Shown: positions 37,284-57,534 of the stretch, one piece after another
How the letters are laid out: every line of letters starts with the position of its first letter
How positions within the stretch are numbered: the first letter of the stretch is position 1
Origin: a virus
Taxonomy: Duplodnaviria; Caudoviricetes
IMG/VR virus record: IMGVR_UViG_3300003320_000853
Reading direction: 5' to 3' (one strand)
Length of the DNA stretch: 64,000 nt
Made by a program: the position numbers and the translations under genes
The notes under the pieces: model-generated
What the model saw: only the letters and a program-made list of their open reading frames with translations
Databases searched by the model: none
What the model was told of the DNA's origin: nothing

Positions 37284-37294
37284 TGTTCCTATGC
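37281..37294 (+). promoter_or_regulatory. Putative late-promoter motif
   Basis: TAGTGTTCCTATGC. Confidence 0.45.
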
Positions 37295-37310
37295 GAAAGG
37301 ATCCAGTGTC

Positions 37311-37931
37311 ATGCACCCTCGACAGGCCGCTCTTCTGAACCAGTCCGCCGACCTCACCGAAAAGCTCGCGGCGAAGCCCCCGGGAACCGTACTTTGGGAG
37401 TACACGGATCCGGATGGGAGGGAGTTCTACCTCAAGGAGCGCATCACCACGGTGAAATCTCCCTGGACGGGCAAGAGCTTCACGGCGAAGCCGAAGAAGT
37501 TCACGCCGGCCCAGGTGGGGCAGGAGATGCGGGACGAGAAGAACGAGGCTACTAGCAAGGGGAAGACGCAGAAGTCCGCGGGGCACGAGCAGGGCCTGTG
37601 GGATGCGCTCACGCCCATCGCCGACAACATCATCGGCGGCGCCATCACGAAGACGGCGTTCTCTGTGGCCCCCCTCTCTTCGGACGCTATCAAGGGGATC
37701 TTCCGCGAGTGCAAGACGGCGGCGGACACCTCGGCCAAGATCCGCGAGATCACCCGCAGCGGCGAGGCATACGTCAACGAGGCTGGCGAGTTCTTCCAGA
37801 CGCTCGCGTTTGCCCTCGGGTGCCACAAGAACATGCTCGTCGCGATGGCCTCGAACGATACCCAGGAGGCGGCGCACCAGAGCAAGATGGTCGCGACGTC
37901 GCTGGCTCGTCTCCATGTGCACGGAATCTGA
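37311..37931 (+). CDS. Hypothetical late protein (KLA/KSA/KTA sites)
   Basis: AAGGA RBS; module WEYTDPDGREFY...SPWTG. Confidence 0.65.
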   Translation: MHPRQAALLNQSADLTEKLAAKPPGTVLWEYTDPDGREFYLKERITTVKSPWTGKSFTAKPKKFTPAQVGQEMRDEKNEATSKGKTQKSAGHEQGLWDALTPIADNIIGGAITKTAFSVAPLSSDAIKGIFRECKTAADTSAKIREITRSGEAYVNEAGEFFQTLAFALGCHKNMLVAMASNDTQEAAHQSKMVATSLARLHVHGI

Positions 37932-53448: not shown

Positions 53449-53784
53449 ATGAAGACGATCGATATCGTTCTCCGAAACCTCCTCAAGCAGACGGGCACAT
53501 TGCCCGTGAACTGGCAGGACCCTTTCGCGAACCTGGCCCGCGAGTACCTCGCGGTGATCGGCGTGCTCCGGGAGCAAGGCGTGGAACAACTTCCTTGGAG
53601 GATCTACCGAGAGATCCAGATTGGGATGTTCGCCATGACCCTCGTGCTCAACGGCGGCCTGGAGACCGTTCCCAATCCGGAAAGCTTCCGACGGAGCTTC
53701 ATCGCGGCTATCAGTGAGATTCGCGCCACGATGAAGCTCCACGAAGAGGCACGGCAGCGCCGGCTCGGGCTTCTACAGGCTTGA
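53449..53784 (+). CDS. Hypothetical protein (111 aa)
   Basis: Promoter motif; codon bias. Confidence 0.55.
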   Translation: MKTIDIVLRNLLKQTGTLPVNWQDPFANLAREYLAVIGVLREQGVEQLPWRIYREIQIGMFAMTLVLNGGLETVPNPESFRRSFIAAISEIRATMKLHEEARQRRLGLLQA

Positions 53785-54963
53785 GCGCCAGGCGCCGAAG
53801 GCGTTGACGGCCGTGCCGAGGAGATCGCCCCGGAGGCAGAGCTCGTCGCAGAGCATAAACCTGCGGTAGCCCACGTCGTAGAGCCACTGCAACTCCATGA
53901 AGTCGGCGCAGCTCGGGACGGGGTTCACGATGTTCTTCGTCGTGCTGAGGAGCGCCTTGACGGGCGGCTGGACGCCTCCCACGCGCCCCGTGTAGGGGGA
54001 GGTGACGGCCTTTTCCTCCACCCGCTGGGGCATGTAGAAGACGTTCCCGTCCTCGTCCTCGTACCTGTAGAGGGCCGTCTGCTCCTTCTCGATGACCGAG
54101 AGGAGGAGGCGGCTCGCGGCGCACGCGAAGGGATCCTTGTCCACGATGAGCCGGAGCGCCTTGCTCATCATGTGTGGTTTCTGGATCTCGACGTAGAGGT
54201 CACCGCGGGCCGCGACGAGGGTCGTCCGGTCGTCCTTGGTGAAGTCCTCCGCGACGTACCGGAGCCCTCTTTCGTTCTCGATCTTGAGCCACACGTCGGC
54301 ATCCTTGCCGACCAGCTCGCGGAACTCATCCACGTCGCTCTGCTCCTCGACGTAGGAGAGGAACCATTTGGTGAAGCCCGCGGCCCGCACCTTGGCGATC
54401 TTCTCGCGCTCCGCCTCGGTGAATGGGTTGCCGAGGATCTTGTGGGGCGCCCGGATGCAGAGCGACTCGCCTGCCTTCACCTGGAAGGTCGGGTTCCGGC
54501 CGAAGATGAGGCGCCGTCCGTCCTCCTCCGTGTGGTCCAGCACGGCCACGTCCATGCCGCCCTTGAAGATGATGGGCGCTCCCGGGGCCACTTCGACGGG
54601 ATGGTTCATCCGGATGTCGAGGTGGTCGTTATTGGGGATGACCTCGACGACCCGAGGCTGACGGCTCTTGATGTCGTAGAAGAGCGGCGCTGAGCCGGCC
54701 GGGAGCCCGGCGACGATGTCCAGCTCCTTGTCCAGCTCGGGACAGGTCATCATCGCCGAGTTCAGGCGAATGCCCGTGATCCGCTTGTCCGCCACGAACT
54801 TCCCGAAGTGGGGGAAACTCGGCCACAGGGTTACGAGGAGCTCGATGTCGGTCATGGCCTTCTCCTGGCGCCTCTGCCGGCGCCATTCCTCCGCCTGCTT
54901 GAAGATGTCTTGTGGCGCCGGGGCAAGCTGCCTGGGCCGTTTGAGGAAGTCGAAGAGGCCCAT
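53773..54963 (-). CDS. Divergent pyruvate-kinase-like protein (A barrel plus B domain, no C domain)
   Basis: LLVTLWP, GIRLN, DIKSRQPR, LSYVE, WLKIENERGL, VAARGDLYVEI, FMLCDE. Confidence 0.75.
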   Translation of the reverse strand: MGLFDFLKRPRQLAPAPQDIFKQAEEWRRQRRQEKAMTDIELLVTLWPSFPHFGKFVADKRITGIRLNSAMMTCPELDKELDIVAGLPAGSAPLFYDIKSRQPRVVEVIPNNDHLDIRMNHPVEVAPGAPIIFKGGMDVAVLDHTEEDGRRLIFGRNPTFQVKAGESLCIRAPHKILGNPFTEAEREKIAKVRAAGFTKWFLSYVEEQSDVDEFRELVGKDADVWLKIENERGLRYVAEDFTKDDRTTLVAARGDLYVEIQKPHMMSKALRLIVDKDPFACAASRLLLSVIEKEQTALYRYEDEDGNVFYMPQRVEEKAVTSPYTGRVGGVQPPVKALLSTTKNIVNPVPSCADFMELQWLYDVGYRRFMLCDELCLRGDLLGTAVNAFGAWRSSL

Positions 54964-54966
54964 GGC

Positions 54967-56004
54967 CTACTTCTTGGAGCCGGGTTTGGAGGGGGGCTTG
55001 GCCGGCTTGGGATCGACGTCCTCCCAGTAGTCGACGAGGTCGGTGCTCTTGGGGGCGAGGAGATGCCTCGACTTCTTCGCGTCTCCGGGCAGCATCATGC
55101 GGCTCTTGCCGCTGCCAGCCGCGTCGAGGAAGTGCTCGGTCTTGAGCGAGCGGAAGACCACCGCGCACTGCGCCTCCGTCTGCCGGCCCTCCATCTCCGT
55201 CTTGAAGTACCCGAGGCGGCCGGTCTCCTGGGCGAGGCACCCGAAGATCACGTCCACGACGCGCTCCGGATCGTCGAGGTTCTTCACGTGGTCGGCGCCG
55301 AGATAGTCCTCCCACTGCTTCTGGATGTTGGCCTCCTGCGAGTCGCCGTACTCCTTGCGGATGATGTAGACGGCGAACTTGTCCACCAGCTCGCGCATGA
55401 TCTCGTCCGTGGGGATCCTCGTCCGGCGGCCGACGTCGATGTGGACGTCCTTGGCCTTCGACGCGAGCACCTCGGAATGGAGCCCTTCGTCGCCCACGAA
55501 GATGATGATCGGCTTCTCGGCGACGGCGTTCGGCGTCCTCACGTTCTGGTTGCAGTAGAGCGCGGCCATCTCGTACGACTCCATCTTGTCGCCGCCCCCT
55601 CCGCCCTCGATCTTCAGCTCCTTGAGATGATTCACGAGCGCCAGGCCGGACGCGAAGGGACGCACCTGGAGGTAGAACTTGTCCCCCATGTGGTCGTCGC
55701 CCACGGCGAAGAAGCTGATCTGCATGTCGGTGCCGAGGTACCAGGGGCACTCCTTGTCGAGGTAGGGCAGCTTGCCGAACCCGACCGCGGGCCACTGTCC
55801 CATGCTCCCGGTCACGTCGAAGATGATGATGAGCGGGCGCTGGGCCATGCTCTCGATGAAGGGCGGAACGAGGGAGGACACCTCGACGCCCGTTTGGACG
55901 GCCTCCTGGTAGCCGCGCCCCGCGTCGGCCGTGTAGGTTGCCTGCGCGTCCTTGAAGCTGTAGCCCCGCCAATCTCCCGGATCGTAGTCGGCTGACTCGG
56001 CCAT
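54967..56004 (-). CDS. von Willebrand factor A (vWA) domain protein
   Basis: MIDAS DVTGSM, GGGGD..ESYE, IFVGDE; AAGGAG RBS; CGGTGTA upstream at 56027-56033. Confidence 0.85.
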   Translation of the reverse strand: MAESADYDPGDWRGYSFKDAQATYTADAGRGYQEAVQTGVEVSSLVPPFIESMAQRPLIIIFDVTGSMGQWPAVGFGKLPYLDKECPWYLGTDMQISFFAVGDDHMGDKFYLQVRPFASGLALVNHLKELKIEGGGGGDKMESYEMAALYCNQNVRTPNAVAEKPIIIFVGDEGLHSEVLASKAKDVHIDVGRRTRIPTDEIMRELVDKFAVYIIRKEYGDSQEANIQKQWEDYLGADHVKNLDDPERVVDVIFGCLAQETGRLGYFKTEMEGRQTEAQCAVVFRSLKTEHFLDAAGSGKSRMMLPGDAKKSRHLLAPKSTDLVDYWEDVDPKPAKPPSKPGSKK

Positions 56005-56053
56005 GATTCGTTCTCCTTGTCTCTCTTACACCGTTCTGGGGGATGTTTTGGGA

Positions 56054-56302
56054 TCATTCGTTCCAGCGGTTCAGGCTGACGCATGACCCATCTCCCATCC
56101 AGTCGTGAAGGATGAAACCTCCGGTTGTGATCCATGTGCGGCCGGAGGCATCCAGGGGCTCGAATTCCAGGTCGGTCATCCCTGACAGCTCGCCTGGAAT
56201 CTTACCGTCCAGGATCACAGCTTTGGGAGCCGTGGGGTTGGGATCCGTGATGCGGATCCTGAATTCGTCGGCTTCGACGATCATATCCTTCTGGAGAGTC
56301 AT
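56054..56302 (-). CDS. Hypothetical protein (82 aa)
   Basis: ATGA overlap with the upstream small ORF. Confidence 0.45.
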   Translation of the reverse strand: MTLQKDMIVEADEFRIRITDPNPTAPKAVILDGKIPGELSGMTDLEFEPLDASGRTWITTGGFILHDWMGDGSCVSLNRWNE

Positions 56303-56475
56303 GTATTCCAGTACCTCCGCCACAAGGCATCCGTCTCGCCAGGAGGGTCGTCTTCGCGGGGACGCTTCACGAGAACCCCGATCGCGGGAGGGCGCCTCCG
56401 GTGCTCTGTGCAGGAGAGACAATCCTGTTCGCACCCGCAATGCGAACACATCGACCCTGTGTAGTGCTTCTCCAT
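56299..56475 (-). CDS. Small Cys-rich protein (58 aa)
   Basis: TGATG coupling to the kinase; CSHCGC...CLSC. Confidence 0.45.
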   Translation of the reverse strand: MEKHYTGSMCSHCGCEQDCLSCTEHRRRPPAIGVLVKRPREDDPPGETDALWRRYWNT

Positions 56476-57473
56476 CACGACCCCGAGGCGGGCCGCGTGC
56501 CCGGACGGATCTGTCCGAACGCCTTCTCCCGGATGGCCTTGAAGGCGTCGAAGAGGTCGCCCTGGGGCCGGTCGAGGGGGTGCTTCGCAGTGAGCTTCTT
56601 GATGAAGCGGCACATGGGCTCCGGAACGGTCGTCGGCACCTCGACCTTCTGGACGGCCTTCATGCCCCCGCCGAGGCCGTAGATCATGCACTGGCCGAGG
56701 GAGTAGTAGTCGGACGCGGGGATGAGAGGCTTGAGCGCGAGCTGCTCCGGCGGGGCGAAGAGCTCCGTGTACCCGTTGCCTCTCGTCTTGGACGTGGGCT
56801 TGACCTGCGACAGGCCGAAGTCGACGAGAACGACTCCGTGATGCTCCCACTGGAGGATGATGTTCTGCGGCTTGAGATCCCCATGGATCACGCCGAAGCG
56901 GTGGAGAAAGAGCAGGGCGTTGAGCAGGCGCTCCGTGATCCATCCCATGTCGTAGGGATCGATGCGGCCCTTCGTTTCGACCTCCTGCTCCAGGGTGGGG
57001 CCCTCGATGTACGACATGACGAGGGCCAGGGAGCCATCGTCGAGCCGGATCATGTCCCGCATCGACGGGAGCGCGAAATGCCGCAACGTTCCGAGGATCC
57101 GGGCCTCCTGGATGAGGACGGCATCGTGGGCAGCCGAGACCGAGGAGCAGTGCTTGATGCACACGATCTCCTTGGTGATGAGGTGCTCGGCGCGGAAGGT
57201 GGTTCCGAAGCCGCCTTCGGCGATCTGGGAGATGATCCGGTAGTTGCCGATGATGTTGTCGCCCTTGGGTGCCCGCTTCTTGTCGTGCTCGGCACGCTTG
57301 GTCGGATCCCCCAGGATGTCGAAGGCGTCCTTCAACGTCTTGAAGCGGGCCATGGATGGGTCCTGCCCGAAGACGAGCGTCTCGTAGGCTGCCTTGATCA
57401 CCTCGGCGCTGGCGCGGGGTGAGACCTCCAGGAGAGCGTAGGGATCGGGGATGGGCGTGGCGGTCTTCGGCAT
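56475..57473 (-). CDS. J-domain (degenerate) / Hanks-type Ser/Thr protein kinase fusion
   Basis: DPYALLEVSPRASAEVIKAAY...AFDILGDPTKRAEHD; IAEGGFG, VCIK, HGDLKPQN, DFG, APPE, SDYYSLG. Confidence 0.9.
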   Translation of the reverse strand: MPKTATPIPDPYALLEVSPRASAEVIKAAYETLVFGQDPSMARFKTLKDAFDILGDPTKRAEHDKKRAPKGDNIIGNYRIISQIAEGGFGTTFRAEHLITKEIVCIKHCSSVSAAHDAVLIQEARILGTLRHFALPSMRDMIRLDDGSLALVMSYIEGPTLEQEVETKGRIDPYDMGWITERLLNALLFLHRFGVIHGDLKPQNIILQWEHHGVVLVDFGLSQVKPTSKTRGNGYTELFAPPEQLALKPLIPASDYYSLGQCMIYGLGGGMKAVQKVEVPTTVPEPMCRFIKKLTAKHPLDRPQGDLFDAFKAIREKAFGQIRPGTRPASGS

Positions 57474-57486
57474 CTTGAGGATCTAG

Positions 57487-57524
57487 TACACCAGACCCCG
57501 AGGTTCCATTGTTCCCACGGTGTA
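57487..57524. promoter_or_regulatory. Back-to-back early-type promoters (TGGTGTA on minus, CGGTGTA on plus)
   Basis: Divergent kinase and 57535 genes each have the motif 12-15 nt upstream of their ATG. Confidence 0.55.
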
Positions 57525-57534
57525 ACAACGCGTC

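What the first reader, a model, noticed from the sequence alone, without database searches (positions are those of the whole stretch)
53773..57473. J-domain Ser/Thr kinase, vWA and pyruvate-kinase-like gene cluster
Seen: five co-oriented minus-strand genes with early-type promoters. They encode a J-like domain lacking HPD (reads GQDP) fused to an intact Hanks kinase, two small proteins, a MIDAS vWA protein, and, 3 nt later, a divergent PK barrel without the C domain. In the PK-like protein KIE and ARGDL are kept, but TQMLES becomes SRLLLS and MLSGET becomes MLCDEL. Established: vWA plus Ser/Thr kinase pairs occur in Ter-associated stress and conflict loci. Inference: a phospho-signalling module in which the PK-like enzyme transfers phosphate from PEP or ATP to a non-canonical acceptor. 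It could serve host takeover, nucleotide supply or counter-defence.
Basis: partly seen in the sequence, partly recalled or inferred. Interest (0 to 1): 0.75.

Follow-up and report, generated by a model that had tools for sequence, protein, structure and literature searches.

The report
Kinase, vWA, mini pyruvate-kinase cassette
This huge phage carries its own copy of a three-gene set (a protein kinase, a metal-binding adaptor protein and a pyruvate-kinase-like enzyme lacking its regulatory domain) that I could not find in any paper; the same set recurs in ultra-small bacteria and archaea, where a sister form sits inside the operon that makes the cofactor NAD.

Summary
Window 53773-57473 (minus strand) holds five tightly packed genes:
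- a J-domain Hanks kinase in which HPD is replaced by QDP
- two small ORFs
- a MIDAS vWA-fold protein
- 3 nt later, a pyruvate kinase (PK) paralogue with the A and B domains but no C domain

Only the "early-type promoters" could not be verified.

The three large genes form a conserved cassette. They occur in the same order in all 27 phage or metagenome loci I fetched and in nearly all of 80 loci from species genomes. Those loci are mostly MAGs labelled CPR or DPANN, with 27-74% GC. Two of the contigs are clearly cellular. The three proteins co-evolve (r 0.74-0.85), and the kinase, MIDAS and PK phosphoryl-transfer residues are nearly invariant.

The enzyme is not an ordinary PK. The proton-donor and MLSGE motifs are changed, and a canonical PK co-exists in 13 of 32 cassette-bearing genomes.

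A sister clade of the cassette lies inside NAD operons. In one closed DPANN genome the order is NAPRTase-like, PncA-like, NadE, Nudix, NMNAT, kinase, vWA, PK-like, NadK.

Best reading: an undescribed, kinase- and vWA-controlled phosphotransfer module tied to NAD(P) and nucleotide supply. The biochemical function is inferred, not shown.

Earlier follow-ups in this scan reported the same cassette on other DNA. I found no paper that describes it.

The parts
56475..57473 (-). J-domain plus Hanks-type Ser/Thr kinase (332 aa). The J domain has lost HPD (QDP). The kinase is catalytically complete and of the non-RD type (HGD).
   Evidence: Pfam Pkinase 1.3e-31 and DnaJ 32.5 bits. Alignment with relatives. 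Catalytic H/D/K/N, DFG and the VCIK Lys are invariant in 92-94 of 94 copies, and HPD is kept in 48 of 94.
56299..56475 (-). Small ORF 1 (58 aa, Cys-rich CxxCxC...CxxC). Its start overlaps the kinase stop (TGATG). Its status as a gene is uncertain.
   Evidence: Sequence read. GC3 is 0.71 against about 0.9 for the large genes, and there is no homologue in the closest relative L120. No family hits.
56054..56302 (-). Small ORF 2 (82 aa). Its start overlaps the ORF 1 stop (ATGA). It is a lineage-specific insert in the slot between the kinase and vWA genes.
   Evidence: Translation. 53% identity, E 4e-30, to the 84-aa gene in the same position in L120. Absent from the other loci.
54967..56004 (-). 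vWA-fold protein with a MIDAS motif (D63-x-T65-x-S67, D172-E173), a conserved N-terminal peptide and a C-terminal helical domain. It belongs to a large family with no Pfam model.
   Evidence: No Pfam hit, PHROG 2971 at 1e-22. AF2 pLDDT 86 and Foldseek matches to integrin beta-I and NorD VWA at E 1.5e-7. Invariant columns. 1,260 representative clusters at E<=1e-10.
53773..54963 (-). Pyruvate-kinase paralogue with the A (TIM barrel) and B domains and no C domain. The phosphoryl-transfer residues are kept; the proton-donor and MLSGE motifs are changed.
   Evidence: Pfam PK 28 bits. hhalign to E. coli PykF residues 1-335. AF2 pLDDT 90. Foldseek top hits are all PKs at E 3e-16. VIA-align Z 27.9. 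Motif positions. Residue conservation over 109 copies.
53926..54093 (-). A roughly 55-residue beta-hairpin insertion (residues about 291-346) in the PK-like protein, between the SRLLLS and PVPSCADF motifs. It is found only in this sub-clade and resembles a segment of the ORF at 37284-37931.
   Evidence: More than half of the 120 relatives have a gap here. The model shows strands at pLDDT 70-87. BLASTP to ORF 37284-37931 gives 39% over 38 aa, E 9e-8.
57474..57534 (.). A 61-bp divergent intergenic region upstream of the operon. This is the presumed promoter region; no promoter was identified.
   Evidence: Sequence. No sigma-70-like site on the minus strand. A 17-nt stretch of this region has no other copy in the window at up to 3 mismatches.

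Best explanation
The operon is a huge-phage copy of a widespread three-gene cassette that I could not find described. It is inherited and transferred as one unit among CPR bacteria, DPANN archaea, a few other bacteria and huge phages.

Shown:
- The PK paralogue keeps essentially every residue that canonical PK uses for phosphoryl transfer between PEP and a nucleotide. It has lost the allosteric and tetramerisation C domain, and the residues around the enolate-protonation site are remodelled.
- Its two constant partners are an active Hanks kinase and a vWA protein with an intact MIDAS site.

Inferred:
- The PK-like protein is an active, metal-dependent phosphotransferase that uses PEP or an NTP.
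- The kinase and the vWA adaptor take over the control that the C domain provides in ordinary PKs. Phosphorylation and MIDAS-mediated docking would gate the enzyme.
- The cassette supplies or couples phosphoryl or NTP equivalents to NAD(P) and nucleotide-cofactor synthesis. The basis is that its sister clade is wedged between NMNAT and NAD kinase in NAD salvage operons.
- In the phage it would sustain this supply during infection.
- The J domain would link the kinase to host DnaK in many lineages. It is degenerate here, so that link is dispensable.
For: Cassette conservation:
- The order kinase, vWA, PK-like is found in 27 of 27 loci and in nearly all of 80 species-genome loci with 27-74% GC.
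- No other gene is shared across these loci.
- The pairwise-identity matrices of the three proteins correlate at r 0.74-0.85 over 86 loci, against a permutation maximum of 0.30.

Active enzymes:
- PK-like R66, N68, D97, K99, R104, K227, E229, G254, D255 and S284 are kept in 105-108 of 109 copies.
- MIDAS D, T and S are kept in 104-107 of 108 copies.
- Kinase H, D, K, N and DFG are kept in 92-94 of 94 copies.

PK homology without the C domain.

Not the housekeeping PK:
- A canonical PK with PF02887 is also present in G002 and in 12 of 30 further cassette-bearing genomes.

NAD link:
- On L094, Pfam finds an isochorismatase, NAD synthase, NUDIX and an NMNAT-like gene upstream, and an NAD kinase downstream.
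- NadE or NMNAT flank 10-11 of the 16 type-2 loci, which include Chloroflexota, Planctomycetota and Acidobacteriota. NadK lies within 6 kb downstream in type-1 L091 (about 0.7 kb) and L005 (about 4.4 kb).
- The closed DPANN genome CP010425.1 carries, on one strand and tightly packed, many with overlapping ends: NAPRTase-like, an unknown 174-aa ORF, PncA, NadE, NUDIX, NMNAT, kinase, vWA, PK-like, NadK.

The J domain is optional: HPD is kept in only 48 of 94 copies.
Against: - No biochemical activity, substrate or protein-protein contact has been shown.
- In this window, and in most type-1 loci, no NAD gene is adjacent. The NAD link therefore rests mainly on the sister clade.
- 18 of 30 cassette-bearing genomes show no canonical PK, so a plain PK role in those is not excluded.
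- The changes T to S, Q to R, S to C and G to D may mean a substrate other than PEP or pyruvate.
- The idea that the kinase and vWA replace the C domain is analogy only.
Confidence: 0.45

Rival explanations
1. The PK-like protein is simply a streamlined glycolytic pyruvate kinase. In the phage it would be an auxiliary metabolic gene; in reduced cells it would be the only PK. It would make ATP from PEP, and the neighbouring kinase and vWA genes would be regulators or bystanders.
For: All of the PK phosphoryl-transfer residues are kept. 18 of 30 cassette-bearing genomes, and the closed AR15 genome, have no detectable canonical PK. Canonical PK is patchy in DPANN (bioRxiv 10.64898/2026.05.13.725050).
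Against: A canonical PK co-exists with the cassette in 13 of 32 genomes. The invariant changes at the proton-donor Thr and in the MLSGE motif (S284-R285, C372-D373) are fixed across the family. The linkage to a kinase and a vWA protein is obligate, which glycolytic PKs do not show. The protein scores below the Pfam and NCBIfam PK cut-offs. AR15 carries two copies, one of them inside the NAD operon.
Confidence: 0.15
2. The cassette is a TerY-P-like conflict module. The kinase and vWA protein form a phosphorylation-dependent switch, as in defence or counter-defence systems, and the PK-fold protein takes the slot of the phosphatase or effector.
For: Triads of a kinase, a vWA protein and a third enzyme are an established theme in conflict systems (PMC10542128; PMC7159879). 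The kinase matches defence-kinase models generically (PD-T4-6, mad6). The cassette is mobile between phages and cells.
Against: There is no PP2C, no zinc-ribbon or OB fusion, and no Ter genes. The vWA and PK-like proteins have no PADLOC hits. The proteins evolve slowly, with mean pairwise identity 44-50% across bacteria, archaea and phages. The cassette sits beside housekeeping genes (S12/S7, RuvA, NAD operon) rather than in defence islands.
Confidence: 0.15
3. The PK-fold protein works as a PEP-dependent protein phosphotransferase, comparable to Enzyme I or PPDK barrels. It would pass phosphate to a residue of the vWA partner or to a DnaK-bound client, with the Hanks kinase as a second input.
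For: The PK barrel belongs to the same PEP/pyruvate-binding barrel superfamily as the PEP-utilising phosphotransferases (general knowledge). The enolate-protonation residues are remodelled while the phosphate-binding residues are kept. The vWA protein has an invariant N-terminal peptide and a Ser/Lys-rich tail.
Against: The B domain and the nucleotide-site Arg (R104) are retained, which points to a nucleotide partner. No swivelling phospho-histidine domain is present. No fused vWA-PK forms were found (weak evidence).
Confidence: 0.1
4. The cassette is a chaperone or assembly module. The J domain recruits DnaK, and the vWA protein acts like the MoxR-associated vWA cochaperones. Together they would fold or load metal into the PK-like protein or other clients.
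For: HPD-bearing J domains occur in 48 of 94 copies. DnaK is present in both cellular genomes I checked. vWA cochaperones are known from jumbo phages (PMC7824862).
Against: The J domain is degenerate or absent in about half of the copies, including this one. No AAA+ MoxR partner is present. The kinase catalytic residues are invariant, which suggests that phosphorylation rather than chaperoning is the conserved activity.
Confidence: 0.05

Closest known systems
Pyruvate kinase (EC 2.7.1.40; PykF/PKM; Pfam PF00224 barrel plus PF02887 C domain)
   Same: A-domain TIM barrel with an inserted B domain (Z 27.9, rmsd 3.0 A). Conserved equivalents of PykF R32, N34, D66, K68, R73, K220, E222, G245 and D246.
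   Different: No C domain, and therefore no FBP/AMP-type allosteric site and none of the C-domain contacts that hold the tetramer together. T278 becomes S and Q279 becomes R; MLSGE becomes MLCDE. PykF P70-E71 become R-Q, both invariant. The B domain is smaller. The score is below the Pfam and NCBIfam cut-offs. The gene is always linked to a kinase and a vWA protein, and it co-exists with a true PK in 13 of 32 genomes.
TerY-P triad (TerY-like vWA, PP2C phosphatase, Ser/Thr kinase fused to a zinc ribbon or OB fold; Anantharaman et al. 2012 as summarised in PMC10542128)
   Same: A three-gene unit with a Hanks-type kinase next to a stand-alone MIDAS vWA protein and a third enzyme that handles phosphate.
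   Different: The third gene has a PK fold, not PP2C. The kinase carries an N-terminal J domain rather than a C-terminal zinc ribbon or OB fold. The vWA protein matches no Pfam VWA model. The genomic context is housekeeping or NAD genes, not Ter, restriction or defence loci.
Kinase, vWA, PurA-like modules of large phages (for example Mycobacterium phage I3 gp270-gp273)
   Same: A homologous vWA-like protein (27% identity, E 2e-9, PHROG 2971) directly follows a protein-kinase gene. Adenylosuccinate-synthetase-like genes also flank vWA/PK-like copies in L045 and L046.
   Different: The partner enzyme there is PurA-like rather than PK-like, and the kinase has no J domain in I3. That module is uncharacterised as well.
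Phage NAD+ reconstitution and salvage pathways (NAMPT plus NMNAT/Nudix in jumbo phages; PMC7824862)
   Same: Large phages carry genes of NAD metabolism. The cassette's sister clade is embedded among PncA, NadE, Nudix, NMNAT and NadK.
   Different: None of the three cassette proteins is a known NAD enzyme, and all canonical Preiss-Handler steps are already present in the AR15 operon. In this window the cassette is not next to any NAD gene.

Membership tests
Pyruvate kinase (PF00224 + PF02887) | A-domain (beta/alpha)8 barrel with an inserted B domain | tested here: met
   AF2 model at pLDDT 90. VIA-align Z 27.9, rmsd 3.0 A, 287 residues, model 38-396 against T. cruzi PK 20-354. hhalign to PykF 1-335.
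Pyruvate kinase (PF00224 + PF02887) | C-terminal alpha/beta regulatory domain (PF02887) | tested here: not met
   The protein ends with the last barrel helix. There is no PF02887 hit, and structural alignments stop at the A/C boundary. Most relatives are only 304-330 aa long.
Pyruvate kinase (PF00224 + PF02887) | Phosphoryl-transfer and metal residues (PykF R32, N34, D66, K68, R73, K220, E222, D246) | tested here: met
   Window R66, N68, D97, K99, R104, K227, E229 and D255 are conserved in 106-108 of 109 copies.
Pyruvate kinase (PF00224 + PF02887) | Proton-donor Thr (PykF T278, TQML) and the MLSGE motif | tested here: not met
   The window has S284-R285 (ASRLL) and C372-D373-E374 (MLCDE). S is found in 106, R in 105, D in 106 and C in 90 of 109 copies.
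Pyruvate kinase (PF00224 + PF02887) | Score above the curated family cut-offs | tested here: not met
   Pfam PK 28.0 bits against a cut-off of 30. NCBIfam TIGR01064 23.7 bits against 306.4. Some relatives pass Pfam, for example L094 at 42.8 bits.
Pyruvate kinase (PF00224 + PF02887) | Catalyses PEP + ADP to pyruvate + ATP | not testable with these tools
   This needs an enzyme assay.
TerY-P triad | PP2C-family phosphatase gene in the unit | tested here: not met
   No PP2C among the five window genes. Clustering of about 108 loci found no conserved fourth gene.
TerY-P triad | Ser/Thr kinase fused at its C terminus to a zinc ribbon or OB fold | tested here: not met
   The kinase has an N-terminal J domain and a short basic C-terminal tail.
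TerY-P triad | TerY-like vWA protein | tested here: inconclusive
   The vWA fold and MIDAS site are present, but no Pfam, NCBIfam or PADLOC VWA/TerY model is matched.
J-domain (Hsp40) cochaperone | J-domain sequence signature (PF00226) | tested here: met
   DnaJ 32.5 bits against a cut-off of 27.8, residues 10-64.
J-domain (Hsp40) cochaperone | HPD tripeptide needed to stimulate the Hsp70 ATPase | tested here: not met
   The window reads G-Q-D-P at this position. The nearest relatives L002 and L120 also lack HPD. 48 of 94 orthologues keep it.
Hanks-type Ser/Thr protein kinase | Gly-rich loop, VAIK Lys, catalytic HxD...N loop, DFG | tested here: met
   EGGFG, VCIK, HGDLKPQN and DFG are present. 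Pkinase 1.3e-31. The motifs are invariant across 94 copies. HGD rather than HRD makes it a non-RD kinase.
vWA / MIDAS domain | vWA alpha/beta fold with MIDAS residues (DxSxS, T, D) | tested here: met
   Foldseek matches integrin beta-I and NorD VWA at E 1.5e-7, prob 1.0. The motif is the DxTxS variant (D63, T65, S67) with D172, all conserved in 104-107 of 108 copies. The fourth MIDAS Thr was not assigned.
Kinase, vWA, mini-PK cassette (unnamed; CPR, DPANN, huge phages) | Same-strand order kinase, vWA-like, C-less PK-like, with orthologous proteins | tested here: met
   Profile HMM hits in all 27 loci and nearly all of a further 80. The window's copy is nested in the type-1 clade together with 228-, 489- and 763-kb contigs.

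The most novel reading that the evidence does not exclude
The C-less PK paralogue, gated by its vWA partner and Hanks kinase, catalyses a so-far undescribed PEP- or NTP-driven phosphorylation within NAD(P) and nucleotide-cofactor salvage. One version would be PEP-coupled ATP regeneration channelled to NAD kinase or NAPRTase. Another would be phosphorylation of a nicotinamide or nicotinate nucleoside, or of an ADP-ribose-type intermediate. Ultra-small symbionts (CPR, DPANN) and huge phages would share this as a common adaptation to living on a host's metabolite pool.
Probability: 0.2. Interest if true: 0.85.

Novelty: new variant of a known kind. Interest (0 to 1): 0.68.

Why it matters
- These three proteins are among the better conserved genes of unknown role in CPR bacteria, DPANN archaea and huge phages. 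The vWA family alone has at least 1,260 clusters at 50% identity and no Pfam model.
- Some pipelines already label the enzyme 'pyruvate kinase' (JGI names). That label can distort glycolysis and energy-budget reconstructions of these organisms.
- The position of the cassette between NMNAT and NAD kinase gives a concrete, testable handle on its function.
- Finding it in a huge phage suggests that phages borrow it to keep NAD(P) and nucleotide supply running during infection.

Tried and rejected
- **Complex prediction.** Complex prediction for vWA plus PK-like was not available, so binding is untested.
- **DNA search.** Nothing in the phage database. No whole genome is held for this window.
- **Single-protein scan of viral contigs.** Found nothing. 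The profile scan did work.
- **Fused forms.** None found among proteins of 717-2045 aa. This is weak evidence.
- **Missing-PRTase idea.** I considered that the cassette replaces the NaPRTase/NAMPT or NadC step. This is rejected as a general explanation. AR15 has a NAPRTase-like gene in the same operon, and several type-2 genomes have NadC or NAPRTase-like genes. The absences in other MAGs are uninformative.
- **NadE neighbour in L029.** This turned out to be MnmA, a false lead.
- **Ter or defence membership.** No PADLOC hits for the vWA or PK-like proteins.
- **Conserved unknown neighbours in type-2 loci.** The 296-aa and 385-aa families gave no Pfam or PDB sequence match.
- **Promoters.** No sigma-70-type site for the operon and no repeated upstream motif.
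- **NAD genes in the window.** None found by tblastn.
- **Literature.** Nine full-text searches found no description of the cassette. The jumbo-phage comparative review does not mention it.

Full report
**What is there**

The window has about 63% GC and comes from a 376,986-bp contig. It carries phage-type genes, including a head-maturation-protease-like gene and a weak, sub-threshold DUF2460 match in a 1,551-aa protein. No whole genome is held for it, and it has no DNA match in the phage database.

On the minus strand, 53773-57473 holds five co-oriented ORFs.

- **Kinase, 56475-57473.** Pfam gives a DnaJ domain (32.5 bits) followed by Pkinase (1.3e-31). The HPD position reads GQDP. The kinase motifs are complete, with HGD instead of HRD.
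- **Small ORFs.** ORF 1 (56299-56475, 58 aa) and ORF 2 (56054-56302, 82 aa) overlap their neighbours by TGATG and ATGA. ORF 2 is conserved in the nearest relative and ORF 1 is not.
- **vWA protein, 54967-56004.** It matches no Pfam model. Its AF2 model (pLDDT 86) is a vWA fold (Foldseek E 1.5e-7 to integrin beta-I and NorD VWA). It has an invariant DxTxS MIDAS motif.
- **PK-like protein, 53773-54963.** It starts three bases after the vWA stop.

**The PK-like protein**

- Pfam PK scores 28 bits, just under the cut-off, and covers only residues 182-273.
- A profile of 120 relatives aligns to E. coli PykF residues 1-335.
- The AF2 model (pLDDT 90) superposes on solved PKs at Z 27.9, rmsd 3.0 A over 287 residues. 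The alignment ends where the C domain would begin.
- Kept residues, with PykF numbering in brackets: R66 (R32), N68 (N34), D97 (D66), K99 (K68), R104 (R73), K227 (K220), E229 (E222), G254-D255 (G245-D246).
- Changed and fixed across the family: T278 to S284, Q279 to R285, MLSGE to MLCDE, and P70-E71 to R101-Q102.
- The window's copy adds a 36-residue N-terminal helix, shared with its closest relatives. It also has a roughly 55-residue beta insertion, which BLASTP links to another ORF in the window (E 9e-8).

**Conservation**

- The PK-like protein has more than 1,000 relatives, most of them 304-330 aa long and many on 200-760 kb contigs.
- The vWA-like profile finds 1,260 representative clusters at E<=1e-10.
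- In every locus recovered with the PK-like protein alone, the order is kinase, vWA-like, PK-like on one strand. This holds for LR745208.1 (a 485-kb uncultured phage), four assemblies and 21 IMG/VR contigs.
- The same holds for nearly all of 80 loci from the species-genome collection, which span 27-74% GC.
- Nothing else is shared between the loci.
- Pairwise-identity matrices of the three proteins correlate at r 0.74-0.85, with a permutation maximum of 0.30. The genes therefore travel and evolve as a unit.
- Catalytic, MIDAS and kinase residues are almost invariant. The J-domain HPD survives in only 48 of 94 copies.

**Not phage-specific**

- In the closed DPANN genome CP010425.1 the cassette lies next to the S12 and S7 genes, a Na/H exchanger and a diphthamide synthase gene.
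- In a 1.24-Mb Patescibacteria contig it lies near maf, ruvA and femAB.
- Both genomes encode Hsp70.
- The Patescibacteria genome also has a canonical PK at 404 bits. So do 12 of 30 further cassette-bearing genomes.
- On the quick maximum-likelihood tree (SH-aLRT support; the careful search did not finish) the family splits into two clades, each with 100% support.
- The window's copy sits in a well-supported sub-clade with 228-, 489- and 763-kb contigs. Viral-database copies fall into at least four separate groups.

**Functional lead**

- The second clade ('type 2') has a kinase without a J domain and is embedded in NAD operons.
- On L094, Pfam identifies an isochorismatase (PncA-like), NAD synthase, NUDIX and an NMNAT-like gene upstream, and an NAD kinase downstream.
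- Local HMMs find NadE in 10 and NMNAT in 11 of the 16 type-2 loci. These include Chloroflexota, Acidobacteriota and Planctomycetota.
- NadK lies within 6 kb downstream in type-1 L091 (about 0.7 kb) and L005 (about 4.4 kb).
- The second cassette copy in CP010425.1 sits in a single-strand, tightly packed operon in which many genes overlap: NAPRTase-like, an unknown 174-aa ORF, PncA, NadE, NUDIX, NMNAT, kinase, vWA, PK-like, NadK.
- All canonical salvage steps are present in that operon. The cassette is therefore an accessory, not a replacement for a missing step.
- Separately, Mycobacterium phage I3 has a kinase (gp270), a homologous vWA-like protein (gp271) and a PurA-like gene (gp273). PurA-like genes also flank extra vWA/PK-like copies in L045 and L046.
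- The recurrent theme is a kinase and a vWA protein paired with an enzyme that phosphorylates an oxo or enol group in nucleotide metabolism. This last generalisation is my inference.

**Interpretation**

- Shown: a conserved, co-evolving three-gene cassette with intact catalytic residues, a PK paralogue without the C domain, and embedding of the sister clade in NAD(P) operons.
- Inferred: the enzyme performs PK-type phosphotransfer, the kinase and the vWA MIDAS domain gate it in place of the lost allosteric domain, and its output serves NAD(P) and nucleotide supply.
- Within this window no NAD gene is adjacent. For the phage copy the functional link is therefore by homology only.
- First-reader notes from this scan, which I could not check, mention NAMPT/NrtR and a vWA-PurA-pseudokinase cluster elsewhere in the same genome.

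**Novelty**

- Nine full-text searches and the jumbo-phage comparative review gave no description of this cassette.
- The closest named system is the TerY-P triad (PMC10542128). The window cassette fails its defining PP2C and zinc-ribbon/OB features.
- Earlier follow-ups in this scan reached the same picture on other genomes. I reached the cassette and the NAD link independently before reading them.

Noticed in passing
window:38633-39676 (+): A 347-aa protein matches the Pfam Volactin family (PF25216, 2.7e-70, full length). This is an actin-like protein encoded by a huge phage.
   Followed up: no
window:53926-54093 (-) and window:37284-37931 (+): The insertion in the PK-like protein (residues about 296-333) shares a roughly 38-residue module with residues 35-70 of an unrelated 215-aa ORF (39% identity, E 9e-8). 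It may be a portable beta-hairpin docking element.
   Followed up: partly
window:49560-53030 (+): A 1,156-aa UvrD/Rep-type helicase lies just downstream of the operon on the other strand. Its N- and C-terminal helicase domains are split by long inserts. The orthologue in relative L002 is 1,493 aa and has a weak intein hit.
   Followed up: no
L121 (CP010425.1, 1054000-1068000) and L057: The closed DPANN genome GW2011_AR15 carries two copies of the cassette. One is beside the S12/S7 genes and one is inside a complete NAD salvage operon. No canonical pyruvate kinase was detected in this genome.
   Followed up: partly
L094:4980-5867, L094:8011-9165 and orthologues: Two conserved families with no Pfam or PDB sequence match accompany the type-2 cassette. 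One is 296 aa, lies between the vWA and PK-like genes, and is also found in three type-1 DPANN loci. The other is about 385 aa and contains GRVGGL and VEMET motifs that resemble nucleoside phosphorylases.
   Followed up: partly
L119 (Mycobacterium phage I3, NC_067270.1, 150646-154494): Cluster C mycobacteriophages carry a kinase (gp270), a vWA-like homologue (gp271, PHROG 2971), gp272 and a PurA-like gene (gp273). This looks like a sister module with a different enzyme partner. 140 Mycobacterium phage records match.
   Followed up: partly
P0015, P0028, P0059, P0067 and others: Some source annotations name the C-less paralogue 'pyruvate kinase'. This could inflate PK counts in metabolic reconstructions of CPR, DPANN and phage genomes.
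   Followed up: no
L045, L046, L083, L108: Some CPR and DPANN loci carry tandem duplications of the vWA-like gene, or of the vWA/PK-like pair. In L045 and L046 an adenylosuccinate-synthetase gene lies between the copies.
   Followed up: no
window:46747-47913 (+): A 388-aa protein with a sigma-70 region-4 domain (2.1e-10). It may be a phage-encoded sigma-like transcription factor.
   Followed up: no
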